Shown here: positions 20,607-23,828 of the stretch, piece by piece
Layout of the letters: each line of letters starts with the position of its first letter
Numbering within the stretch: the stretch's first letter is position 1
Assembly (NCBI GenBank): GCA_029979185.1
Contig: JAPOIA010000003.1
Span: 1 to 44,146, forward strand
Length of the DNA stretch: 44,146 bases
Source: Alphaproteobacteria bacterium
Lineage (GTDB): Bacteria > Pseudomonadota > Alphaproteobacteria > Rhizobiales > Beijerinckiaceae
Reading direction: 5' to 3'
Notes under the pieces: model-generated
What the model was told of the DNA's origin: nothing
Seen by the model: only the letters and a program-made list of their open reading frames with translations
Database searches by the model: none
Translations under genes and position numbers: made by a program

Positions 20607-21203
20607 CTACAACTTTCGGACAGCGCCGCCTCTTTCGAGTTTTTCATGCGCTTCCCAGGCCGGCTTGTCGGCCTGCATGCGCTCCAGTTCCGCCCGCTGC
20701 GCCAACATGTCCTGAAGCCGCGCAAGCGCCGCTGCCTTGTTGCGATGCTGGGAGCGTTCGGACCGCGCGACCACGGCATAACCCGTGGGCGTGTGAACGG
20801 CGCGCACTGCGCTATCGGTCGTATTCTGGTGCTGACCGCCGGGACCACCTGCGCGCAGGGTTTCAAAGCGAACATCCCCTTCGCGAAGCGCCTGCGGCGC
20901 AGACGTTTCATCGAGTTTGAAAATGCCGACGAACCAGTTCTTGCGCCTGTGGTTTGGGCGCAGCGGACTTTGCGCCACCCATTGCGCGGTGCCGACCCAT
21001 GAAGCCGCAAACCTTTCGGCGCCATCACCAGACAGGATGACGATTACCGAACCGGGGCCATGCTTGTCCGGCTCGGCGCCCGATACGACGTCCATATCCA
21101 AACTGGCTGCAGAAGCCTCCCGCTGCATTTGCTTCAGGGCACGGGCGAGCGCGAGCCGGCATTCCGCCGGCCCGCGTCCACTGGTGATCAGAAGTCTGGT
21201 CAT
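20607..21203 (-). CDS. prfH: Peptide chain release factor H (ribosome rescue)
   Basis: SGRGPAEC, SPLRP.H.RKNWFVG, GPGGQH and ERSQHRNK; lies directly downstream of an RtcB2 gene. Confidence 0.95.
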   Translation of the reverse strand: MTRLLITSGRGPAECRLALARALKQMQREASAASLDMDVVSGAEPDKHGPGSVIVILSGDGAERFAASWVGTAQWVAQSPLRPNHRRKNWFVGIFKLDETSAPQALREGDVRFETLRAGGPGGQHQNTTDSAVRAVHTPTGYAVVARSERSQHRNKAAALARLQDMLAQRAELERMQADKPAWEAHEKLERGGAVRKL

Positions 21204-22365
21204 CGCCCGGACCTCCGCAACTTACTTCGCATGTCGCCGGGCGCTCGCGCGCCTTGAAAGTTACAAGCGGCTTCAGGGTTGCAACCCGCGCCACAAGCCC
21301 ATGCGATTCAAGGTCGCCGATGACCTTGCCGCTGTCCTTGTAGGCCTCCCCTGCTTCCTCTGCCAGTAGCGCCTTGTCCTCGCAAATGACATAGCCGCCG
21401 AAAGGATTGCGCTGCAGACGGGCAAGATCGGACTTGCTGTTTCCAGCTCGCGCCCGCGCAGACGCCCGGTCGTACTTCCGGCCGGATCCATGCGATACTG
21501 TCAGCATGGCATGCGCTCCGCCGGTCCAGCGTACAAGGTGGCTGAGCGTTGCCCGCGAGCCGGCAATCGGAACAAGGCTCGACGACGCACGCGTGACGGT
21601 TGCCGCACCCTTGCGATGCAGGATTGCGCCATCATGCACCTCCAGCAAGTTATGGGGAGCATCGACGATCAATCGCGGTTCCATTCGCAAGGCCTTCGCC
21701 GCTCGCTCGGCAATGATCTGCCGGTTAAGCGTTGCCCATCGCACGGCTGCGTCATGCCTTTGCCGATATTGCACGGCCTGATCACCTGCCGGGTCGAGAC
21801 TGACGAGCCCGTCGCGCAGAACGTCCTCCAGAATCGCATTGCCGAGACCGCGCGATCCGGAATGCACCAACAGGCAGAGACTGTCCTTCTGCAACCCTTG
21901 CGCTTCCAAGGCATTGCTGTCGAAAACATCGCCGACGGCCTGCACTTCACAGAAGTGATTGCCGCCGCCGACCGTGCCGAGGACACCCGCAAAGCCGGCT
22001 TCTGCAAGTCCGGCCTGCGCCAGGCGCGCCTGCGCGTCGCCGTCCCAGCTTTCGCCAAGACCACGCAGCCTTTCGGCGGCCTTGTCGAGGCGCAGCCGCC
22101 GGGCAGGTTCGTCCAGAGCGAAAAGCGCCATGCCGCAGCTGATATCCGAGCCTACCAGCTCGGGACGGATGGTTCTGGACAATATGGCGCAGCCGACCGG
22201 TCCGTATTTCCCCGGATGCAGGTCCGGCATGGCCGCCACGGAAATCGTTTCGGGATGATCGGCAACCTGGTTGAGCTGATCGACGGCAGAACCCTCGATC
22301 CAGGCGTTTTCAGAATAAAAAGTATGAACCGGCGCGCGGCCGGTGCGTTCGGGATTATTGCCCAT
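21025..22365 (-). CDS. rtcB: RNA ligase RtcB family protein (PrfH-linked RtcB2); as sequenced its 3' end runs 179 nt into prfH
   Basis: MPDLHPGKY.P.G, DISCG, GTVGGGNHF, VHSGSRGLG, PHN, HRKGA, SHGSGRK and EAYK. Family-like sequence ends at LKPLVTFK near 21255; the expected stop is near 21200. Confidence 0.9.
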   Translation of the reverse strand: MGNNPERTGRAPVHTFYSENAWIEGSAVDQLNQVADHPETISVAAMPDLHPGKYGPVGCAILSRTIRPELVGSDISCGMALFALDEPARRLRLDKAAERLRGLGESWDGDAQARLAQAGLAEAGFAGVLGTVGGGNHFCEVQAVGDVFDSNALEAQGLQKDSLCLLVHSGSRGLGNAILEDVLRDGLVSLDPAGDQAVQYRQRHDAAVRWATLNRQIIAERAAKALRMEPRLIVDAPHNLLEVHDGAILHRKGAATVTRASSSLVPIAGSRATLSHLVRWTGGAHAMLTVSHGSGRKYDRASARARAGNSKSDLARLQRNPFGGYVICEDKALLAEEAGEAYKDSGKVIGDLESHGLVARVATLKPLVTFKARERPATCEVSCGGPGDDQTSDHQWTRAGGMPARARPCPEANAAGGFCSQFGYGRRIGRRAGQAWPRFGNRHPVW

Positions 22366-22514
22366 GTGGGAATAGTCTTTCGAGATTTCGACCGCGCGCA
22401 TCCACGGCGGCAAGCCATACGGCATTGCTCCGGAAACAGCGTCGATATGTCAGGAGGCCTGCTCCGGCGTGCCGGGAGCAAGCAATATCCTGTCCTTCCG
22501 CAACGCGGATAGGA

Positions 22515-22556
22515 TCAGAATGAACCCCGGGCCGGGGCGCGCAAGGTATGCGTCAT
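22515..22556 (-). CDS. Putative leader peptide (MTHTLRAPARGSF*) upstream of rtcB2-prfH
   Basis: AAGGGGA Shine-Dalgarno (22570-22564) 7 nt before ATG; 13 codons; UGA stop embedded in a hairpin. Confidence 0.5.
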   Translation of the reverse strand: MTHTLRAPARGSF

Positions 22557-22753
22557 GGCGATGTCCCCTTCTCTCGATGACTGAGCGGCCAGCCTGTCGC
22601 AAAACAATATGGCCGCAAAATGTCTGGCTGCGCACGTTGACCTTCCCGATATTGCGCGGGCATCGCCATTGTGCACCGGCCTTATTTCATGGAAGATGGC
22701 AACAGGATGTGACAAATGTAACAGACAGCCGAAGCAGGCTGCCGGGAGGAAAC

Positions 22754-23779
22754 ATGCTGCTGCCTACGACCATGGTTGGTTCCTATGCACAGCCGGACTG
22801 GCTGATCGATCGTACAAAACTGAGCCTGCGGGCGCCGCCGCGCATCCGGGCAAAAGAGTTGTGGCGGATCGACGAGGAATTTCTGGAGCAAGCGCAGGAC
22901 GATGCAACCATGCTGGCCATTCGCGACCAGGAGAGCGCCGGCGTCGATATCCTGACCGACGGAGAAATGCGCCGCGAAAGCTATTCCAACCGTTTCGCGA
23001 CCGCGCTGGAGGGTGTGGATGCGGAAAATCCCGCCATCGTCCCGAGCCGCACCGGAAAGCCGGACATGGTGCCGCGCGTGATCGGTCCGATCCGCCGTAA
23101 ATATCCTGTCGAGGTGCGCGACGTGCAGTTTCTGCGGACCAATACGAACAGGAAAATCAAGATCACCGTACCCGGCCCGTTCACCATGTCGATCCAGGCG
23201 AAGGATTTTCACTACAACGACGAGGTGGCCGTCGCGATGGCCTATGCCGCCGCGGTCAATGAGGAAATCAAGGACCTCTTCGCTGCCGGCGCCGACATTG
23301 TGCAAATCGACGAGCCCTATATGCAGGCCCGCCCCGACCAGGCGCGCGCTTTTGGCGTCGATGCCATCAACCGCGCACTGGAGGGGGTTTCCGGCACTAC
23401 CGGCGTGCATCTTTGCTTCGGATATGCCGCGCTGGTGAAAAACAAGCCGGAAGGCTATTCCTTCCTCGCCGAGCTGGAGAACAGCAAGGCTGACTACGTG
23501 TCCATCGAAACCGCGCAGCCGGTTCTCGATCTGGCGATTCTGGAAAAACTGCCGTCCAAGACAATCGTGGTCGGTGTCATTGATCTCAGTACGAACGAAA
23601 TCTAAACCCCGGAAATAGTTGCCGAGCGTATCAAACGGATTTTCCCGCATGTTCCTGCAGAGCGCGTCATCGTGGCCCCCGACTGCGGCATGAAATACCT
23701 GCCGAGGGACGTGGCCTATGAAAAACTGAAAGCGATGGTGGACGGAACGCGCATGGTTCGCGCGAGCCTCGACAAATGA
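22754..23779 (+). pseudogene. Short cobalamin-independent methionine synthase-like (MetE catalytic domain) gene with an in-frame TAA at 23603-23605
   Basis: PTTMVGSY, TDGEMRRESY, PGPFT, QIDEP and HLC precede the stop. The same frame continues TPEIVAERI...APDCGMKYL...KLKAMV to TGA at 23777-23779. Confidence 0.85.
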
Positions 23780-23828
23780 TCCCGCATAAACCCCAAAAAA
23801 CCGCACGATTATTGCCGGAGTTCTCTCG

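What the first reader, a model, noticed from the sequence alone, without database searches (positions are those of the whole stretch)
22366..22570. Unannotated leader ORF with a hairpin-embedded UGA upstream of rtcB2-prfH: candidate sensor of damaged or error-prone ribosomes
Seen (minus strand): a strong SD (AAGGGGA) and a 13-codon ORF MTHTLRAPARGSF ending UUC-UGA, 149 nt before the rtcB2 ATG. The stop lies in the base of a hairpin, CUG-a-UCCU-a-UCCGC-guu-GCGGA-AGGA-CAG (22518-22490). A second hairpin follows (UGCU-c-CCGG-cacg-CCGG-AGCA, 22480-22460). The CAGGA at the 3' foot of hairpin 1 can instead pair with UCCUG (22455-22451), giving two mutually exclusive folds. Past the UGA the frame stays open across the whole leader and over the rtcB2 start (out of frame, to 22152), and rtcB2 has only a weak SD. 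Established: PrfH rescues, and RtcB2 religates, ribosomes nicked in the 16S decoding centre (colicin E3-type damage). Inference: stalling or readthrough at this UGA remodels the leader and switches on the repair operon, a translation-fidelity attenuator that I do not know to be described.
Basis: partly seen in the sequence, partly recalled or inferred. Interest (0 to 1): 0.8.

Follow-up and report, generated by a model that had tools for sequence, protein, structure and literature searches.

The report
Stall-sensing leader of ribosome-repair operon
A 13-codon mini-gene sits in front of this bacterium's ribosome-repair genes and is conserved across related bacteria; it likely switches those genes on when ribosomes stall at its start, much like a leader already known in Pseudomonas, and its UGA stop codon is not conserved.

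Summary
The uORF, SD and hairpins are there. Such a uORF precedes rtcB2 in 103 of 106 and 86 of 97 homologous leaders, against about 13% in controls. The UGA-readthrough idea fails: among 162 alphaproteobacterial leaders the stop is UAA 98, UGA 52, UAG 12, and Phe-UGA occurs only here. The mechanism is not undescribed: P. aeruginosa PA5471.1, a 13-codon leader of armZ (RtcB-like)-prfH, is a published stalling attenuator; E. coli has a counterpart. This scan noted the same kind of leader on other DNA several times. What is added: the alphaproteobacterial leaders share a CCC-n-GGG core in any reading frame and a stop-embedded hairpin. The Hyphomicrobiales-type group has a covarying long-range helix joining the uORF's RBS to the rtcB2 RBS (23 of 50 at p<=0.05; 6 bp here). 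A modelled ribosome at the uORF start opens the rtcB2 RBS in 34 of 50; the effect in this window depends on parameters. Two metatranscriptomes hold contigs of the leader (weak hint). Verdict: new variant of a known kind; induction untested.

The parts
22572..22577 (-). 5' strand of the long-range RBS-to-RBS helix (P0), directly upstream of the uORF SD
   Evidence: 6 bp with 22385-22380; in the MFE; 1 of 100 shuffles as good in 21x21-nt windows; wider windows pick another helix, p 0.057
22564..22570 (-). strong Shine-Dalgarno of the uORF
22515..22556 (-). 13-codon uORF MTHTLRAPARGSF plus UGA; positional counterpart of PA5471.1
   Evidence: top hit in the 3-Mb genome of an HMM built from 86 other alpha leaders, E 0.07
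22524..22538 (-). conserved core hairpin inside the uORF (CCC-n-GGG)
   Evidence: motif in 49 of 54 dereplicated alpha uORFs vs codon-shuffle mean 5.5, max 14 of 1000 rounds; fold
22490..22518 (-). hairpin 1, stop codon in its base; apex shared with other Hyphomicrobiales-type leaders
   Evidence: apex motif in 8 of the 103 leaders; a two-base variant in both RNA runs shifts the bulge and keeps -13.6 kcal/mol
22460..22480 (-). hairpin 2
22451..22455 (-). UCCUG, alternative partner of the foot of hairpin 1; pairs when a ribosome is modelled at the stop
   Evidence: no conserved equivalent shown
22380..22385 (-). 3' strand of P0, at -20 to -15 of rtcB2, abutting its weak SD
21025..22365 (-). rtcB2 RNA ligase gene (446 aa)
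   Evidence: TIGR03073 above cut-off; 41.7% identical over 369 aa to the ArmZ-like protein of L126
20607..21203 (-). prfH release-factor homolog (198 aa)
   Evidence: TIGR03072 above cut-off

Best explanation
This leader carries a conserved short uORF that likely acts as a sequence-independent sensor of stalled ribosomes and would switch on rtcB2-prfH when a ribosome dwells at the uORF start or first codons. Shown: uORF, strong SD, core hairpin and stop-embedded hairpin are conserved, while peptide, reading frame of the core and stop codon are not. Shown by comparison: in the Hyphomicrobiales-type group the uORF's RBS flank and the strand just before the rtcB2 SD are complementary, with different sequences in different lineages. 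Inferred: when ribosomes pass through the uORF and leave, this helix re-forms and keeps the weak rtcB2 RBS closed, and the untranslated message would end early (Rho-type polarity, untested). A ribosome that initiates but cannot elongate (antibiotic, uncharged tRNA, nicked decoding centre) would hold the helix open and allow rtcB2-prfH translation.
For: uORF in 103 of 106 and 86 of 97 leaders vs about 13% in two controls. prfH follows in 78 of 80 loci. The core CCC lies in all three frames (29/10/8 of 47), so RNA, not peptide, is conserved. P0 helix: 23 of 50 leaders at shuffle p<=0.05, own partner in the best tenth in 22 of 50; earlier set 17 of 21 self better than cross. Constrained folding: a footprint at the uORF start lowers the cost of opening the rtcB2 RBS by more than 1 kcal/mol in 34 of 50 (5 opposite; mean -2.4), a footprint at codon 4 or at the stop does not, and the shuffled-flank control gives -0.08. 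In beta/gamma leaders early footprints open the RBS relative to the stop footprint in 8 of 9. Precedent: PA5471.1 is induced by ribosome-targeting drugs and by stalling at codons 3-4 (PMC12057347, PMC13041342); E. coli ykfJ is induced by 4-azaleucine (PMC3516279). Contigs of the leader occur in RNA runs of two studies, ending 24 nt apart on one side and 9 nt apart on the other (weak hint, strand unknown).
Against: In this window P0 is only 6 bp, and the modelled switch depends on parameters: 7.2 to 5.5 kcal/mol, but 8.4 to 8.3. Across all 54 dereplicated alpha leaders the start-versus-stop comparison is not consistent (17 more open, 20 less). RNAalifold finds no consensus structure for the 23-sequence Hyphomicrobiales-type alignment and does not predict P0 in the Bradyrhizobium-like alignment. 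27 of 50 leaders have no significant P0. The group was chosen by hand after looking at the sequences, and relatives are not independent. No ribosome profiling, induction or strand-specific RNA data exist here. Equilibrium folding ignores co-transcriptional order.
Confidence: 0.55

Rival explanations
1. Transcription attenuator gated at the 3' end of the uORF: a ribosome reaching the stop melts hairpin 1, lets CAGGA pair with UCCUG and favours termination; any upstream stall prevents this. P0 is incidental in this genome.
For: The alternative fold appears when a footprint is placed at the stop. The stop-embedded hairpin is general (45 of 54). PA5471.1 is proposed to work by transcription attenuation. 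RNA contigs end just past hairpin 2 (22454, 22430).
Against: No terminator-like site lies between the uORF and the rtcB2 start. The uORF-body:spacer helix that is enriched in beta/gamma leaders (-17.3 vs -12.6 shuffled) is not enriched in Hyphomicrobiales-type leaders (-12.5 vs -13.8). No conserved equivalent of CAGGA:UCCUG was shown.
Confidence: 0.25
2. One reading: readthrough or slow termination at UUC-UGA reports error-prone ribosomes.
For: The UGA sits in a hairpin base and the frame stays open past the rtcB2 start. UGA is common in the metagenome set (38 of 86).
Against: UAA in 98 of 162, Phe-stop in 1 of 162, readthrough frames mixed, open frame near chance (69 vs 57). UGA is the genome's commonest stop.
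Confidence: 0.05
3. The uORF is non-regulatory here: a constitutive loading or reinitiation aid, or a decaying leader on an operon that only this lineage of the genus carries.
For: No PrfH-level match in 36 congeners. The spacer is longer than usual (149 nt against mostly 65-115). No modelled switch.
Against: SD, length, core and hairpins are intact. A strain variant keeps hairpin 1. rtcB2 and prfH are intact in two DNA runs (no indels).
Confidence: 0.1
4. The nascent peptide (RAP/RRP-like stretch) is a programmed arrest motif that sets the response.
For: RAP, RRP or RPV recur in Hyphomicrobiales-type uORFs. The likeness to RAPP-type arrest motifs is recalled, not tested.
Against: The same nucleotides occur in other frames (L040, L189). 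Rhodobacterales and gamma peptides are unrelated.
Confidence: 0.05

Closest known systems
PA5471.1 leader peptide of armZ (PA5471, RtcB-like)-PA5470 (prfH), Pseudomonas aeruginosa (Morita et al. 2009; original not held, seen through passages of PMC12057347, PMC13041342, PMC3516279, PMC3884212)
   Same: 13-codon uORF with a strong SD in front of the same gene pair. L126/L127 carry a leader matching the published description (13 codons, Gln3, Phe4, 254 nt ATG to ATG) and it has the CC[CT]-n-[AG]GG core. The RtcB2 proteins are 41.7% identical.
   Different: Sequence homology between alpha and gamma leaders is not detectable by HMM (no hit at E<0.05). Gamma and Rhodobacterales-type leaders pair the SD with the core; Hyphomicrobiales-type leaders instead pair the uORF RBS flank with the rtcB2 RBS flank. 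There is no intrinsic terminator in this leader. A MexZ link was not tested.
toiL uORF of E. coli topAI-yjhQ (PMC12121999; abstract and section list seen)
   Same: uORF stalling by several antibiotic classes, including at the start codon, unmasks a downstream RBS; without it Rho terminates. This is the output logic inferred here.
   Different: Different operon (toxin-antitoxin); no homology tested or claimed.
RtcB2-PrfH ribosome rescue and repair pair (PMC9304027 abstract and passages; PMC9223846 passages; PMC13166195 and 10.1101/2025.01.09.632186 listing and term search)
   Same: The regulated genes belong to these families.
   Different: The words leader, upstream, attenuat and PA5471 do not occur in the main text of these four papers.

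Membership tests
PA5471.1/armZ leader attenuator | short (~13-codon) SD-led uORF upstream of rtcB2(armZ)-prfH | tested here: met
PA5471.1/armZ leader attenuator | sequence homology of the leader RNA | tested here: inconclusive
   shared CC[CT]-n-[AG]GG core at the same place, but cross-group nhmmer gives no hit at E<0.05
PA5471.1/armZ leader attenuator | uORF-to-spacer (anti-terminator-type) helix competing with a downstream terminator hairpin | tested here: not met
   enriched in beta/gamma leaders, not in Hyphomicrobiales-type leaders; no terminator-like site in the window's spacer. L126 also lacks a run of five U in its spacer.
PA5471.1/armZ leader attenuator | uORF is translated, and stalling on it induces the operon | not testable with these tools
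   no ribosome profiling or reporter data; only constrained folding
PA5471.1/armZ leader attenuator | RtcB-like product acts as MexZ anti-repressor | not tested
   no search for mexZ/mexXY was made
Programmed stop-codon readthrough or frameshift sensor (prfB-like; features recalled) | conserved stop codon, last codon and downstream frame | tested here: not met
Rfam families | match at gathering score | tested here: not met
   window: best E 0.52, below gathering; 8 homologous loci: 0 matches
RtcB2-PrfH operon | TIGR03073 gene followed by TIGR03072 gene | tested here: met

The most novel reading that the evidence does not exclude
The leader is a direct gauge of decoding-centre damage: a nicked ribosome can still initiate on the strong uORF SD but cannot decode codon 2, parks there, breaks a covarying RBS-to-RBS helix and licenses rtcB2-prfH translation; PrfH then clears the parked ribosome, closing a negative feedback loop. 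PA5471.1 would then be one case of an ancestral, phylum-wide ribosome-repair sensor later co-opted for MexXY control.
Probability: 0.2. Interest if true: 0.65.

Novelty: new variant of a known kind. Interest (0 to 1): 0.38.

Why it matters
The rescue and repair chemistry of PrfH and RtcB2 is established, but the four papers on it that I searched do not mention its leader. A 2025 review calls leader-peptide regulation of ArmZ apparently unique to MexXY (PMC12057347). A conserved uORF across alpha-, beta- and gamma-type leaders suggests it is the general on-switch of the repair operon, and the RBS-to-RBS helix gives a concrete, mutable target for testing it in Alphaproteobacteria. The principle (stalling on a uORF induces a ribosome-stress operon) is known, and this scan has reported it on other DNA, so surprise is moderate to low.

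Tried and rejected
UGA readthrough or +1 frameshift: rejected. Alternative rtcB2 start at 22425: homologs start at MG and codon 2 ends in C in 63 of 63, so 22365 was kept. Pairing of the uORF core with the rtcB2 start (GCCC:GGGC): predicted by RNAalifold in A4 but nearly invariant, with no compensatory change; not relied on. A spacer element complementary to the rtcB2 start: enriched in beta/gamma (9 of 9 better than shuffle mean), not in alpha groups; the window's example has p 0.33. SD:core helix: supported in Rhodobacterales-type leaders (30 of 33 better than shuffle mean; one column pair AU16/GC14) and beta/gamma (8 of 9), not in the window's group (7 of 21; window p 0.33). Long-segment duplex tests were noisy. 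RNAalifold on A2 gave no pairs. Cross-group HMMs gave nothing significant. Lack of RNA cover over rtcB2, prfH and the metE-like gene in X19/X20 is not used as evidence: these are contigs, low depth, found with this stretch, and may hold DNA. A promoter could not be placed (one weak match, at the rtcB2 start). Relatives search with PrfH: only 2 of 60 other genomes had a PrfH-level hit. Morita 2009 was not held. No mention of ykfJ/prfH in the main text of 10.1101/2021.07.02.450978 (supplements closed, and may list the E. coli uORF), none in the supplements of PMC7815308, none of armZ in PMC8297930, none of rtcB/prfH in PMC13285730. PMC1586002 has no 'leader' or 'uORF'. Rows dropped: one search skipped L121 (window itself), L122 (same as L096), L003, L118 and three loci with no start found (L076, L087, L124); L076 and L087 had no uORF. 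One search dropped 10 loci with too little flank. The 50-leader set left out L036 and L196 (uncertain start), L090 (Rhodobacterales-type), and L041, L048 and L231. uORF starts of L038, L039, L042, L043 and the rtcB2 start of L082 were set by hand.

Full report
Observation. Hairpins 1 and 2 and the alternative fold form as described, although the whole leader is no more stable than its shuffles (z -0.74). The downstream genes are rtcB2 and prfH by curated cut-offs. No Rfam family matches the window or 8 homologous loci. DNA holders are estuary and seawater metagenomes.

Conservation of the uORF. I took 80 named genome loci, loci from phylum, genus and order searches, the E. coli K-12 ykfJ region and 80 metagenome loci. 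With fixed criteria (ATG, 11-19 codons, SD duplex <= -3 kcal/mol, stop 55-220 nt before rtcB2), 103 of 106 leaders had a uORF, against 287 of 2120 shuffles and 316 of 2341 control regions in this genome. The second batch gave 86 of 97; eight of its 11 misses belong to a second RtcB2 clade with another leader layout. prfH follows in 78 of 80 loci. These sets contain near-duplicates and relatives, so the counts are not independent events. An HMM of 86 other alpha leaders ranks the window's leader first in the 3-Mb genome (E 0.07); smaller group models do worse (E 3.6, or no hit).

What is and is not conserved. Length is 12-16 codons in most. The stop is UAA 98, UGA 52, UAG 12 of 162; Phe is the last codon only in the window; the readthrough frame is mixed and open about as often as chance. 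UGA is the commonest stop of long ORFs in this genome. This removes the basis for a UGA-readthrough sensor. The peptide is not conserved across groups, and the core CCC falls in all three frames. Conserved instead: a CC[CT]-n3-7-[AG]GG core in the middle of the uORF (49 of 54 vs shuffle mean 5.5), and a hairpin that spans the stop (45 of 54).

Known precedent. P. aeruginosa PA5471.1 is a 13-residue leader about 250 bp upstream of armZ (RtcB-like), which is co-transcribed with PA5470/prfH; ribosome-targeting drugs and stalling at its first codons induce the operon, by a proposed transcription attenuation (passages of PMC12057347, PMC3516279, PMC3884212; passages and sections 10-11 of PMC13041342). 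The original paper was not held. Loci L126/L127 carry a leader that fits this description, and E. coli K-12 has a 15-codon counterpart before ykfJ. Paper searches and term searches in the RtcB2-PrfH papers and in PMC1586002 and PMC13159725 showed no description of this leader outside P. aeruginosa; most subscription journals and bioRxiv supplements are not covered. Earlier reports of this scan reached the same PA5471.1 reading on other DNA; none was found for this sequence. My reading was recorded before that look-up.

RNA wiring differs by group (groups set by hand from titles and leader look). In beta/gamma leaders the uORF's SD pairs with the core, the uORF body pairs with the spacer, and the spacer pairs with the rtcB2 start; an early ribosome footprint opens the rtcB2 RBS relative to one at the stop in 8 of 9. 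Rhodobacterales-type leaders keep the SD:core helix, with one compensatory column pair. In the window's Hyphomicrobiales-type group these helices are not enriched. Instead the flank and SD of the uORF pair with the strand just before the rtcB2 SD: 23 of 50 at p<=0.05, up to 15 bp, with different sequences in different lineages. A footprint at the uORF start opens the rtcB2 RBS in 34 of 50; footprints at codon 4 or the stop do not, and shuffling the flank removes the effect. In the window the helix is 6 bp (p 0.01 in narrow windows; not the best helix in wider ones), and the modelled opening is 1.7 kcal/mol but absent. RNAalifold does not recover the helix from the MAFFT alignments. So the group-level signal is fair and the window-level signal is weak.

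Expression. Two seawater metatranscriptomes of different studies each give one contig on the leader (22430-22659 and 22454-22650, 4 differences each). Over 19.9 kb it is the only contig at 95% or more identity in X19 and one of 4 in X20. Contigs show no strand or true ends and may include DNA, so this is a weak hint of a stable leader RNA. Both carry a two-base variant that moves the bulge of hairpin 1 and keeps its energy.

Mechanism. Shown: the anatomy and its conservation. From established knowledge: PrfH and RtcB2 rescue and repair ribosomes cut in the decoding centre (PMC9304027, abstract), and uORF stalling can unmask a downstream RBS, with Rho termination otherwise (toiL, PMC12121999, abstract). 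Inferred: ribosomes that dwell at the uORF start hold the long-range helix open and allow rtcB2-prfH expression (0.55). The main rival is transcription attenuation gated at hairpin 1 (0.25); the two could act together.

Verdict. It works like PA5471.1 and sits in the same place, but one defining feature (uORF-to-spacer helix against a terminator) was tested and not met, and sequence homology is inconclusive. I file it as a new variant of a known kind. Interest 0.38.

Noticed in passing
window 22754-23780 (+): The divergent MetE-like methionine synthase gene has an in-frame TAA at about 23603; DNA runs X1 and X4 read G at 23603 in all contigs covering it, so the stop is probably an assembly error or rare allele.
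   Followed up: yes
window 21025-21203 (-): rtcB2 runs 179 nt into prfH out of frame (446 aa against 373-397 in six homologs); no indel in two DNA runs.
   Followed up: partly
L223, L225, L226, L227, L228, L229: A second RtcB2 clade in the same order has a different leader: a strong-SD uORF of 34-43 codons that starts close to the rtcB2 start in another frame and appears to overlap it (6 of 9 loci L221-L229).
   Followed up: partly
window 22363-22357 (-) and homologs: The rtcB2 start is conserved at nucleotide level: codon 2 ends in C in 63 of 63 leaders and is GGC in 62. This suggests an RNA-level constraint whose partner is clear only in beta/gamma leaders (L115 shows a matching change).
   Followed up: partly
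window 22344-22328 (-): Terminator-like hairpin plus U-run about 20 nt inside rtcB2; the U-run coincides with conserved Phe-Tyr codons; could stop untranslated transcripts.
   Followed up: no
window 20607-22365: The operon sits tail to tail with gyrB and has no PrfH-level match in 36 congeners and no TIGR03073 match in 12-14 other genomes of the family, which suggests patchy gain or loss.
   Followed up: partly
L125:2700-2991: E. coli K-12 keeps an unannotated 15-codon uORF with a 10-bp SD:core helix in front of the ykfJ pseudogene.
   Followed up: yes
L076, L087, L120, L219: rtcB2 loci without a uORF by the criteria used.
   Followed up: no
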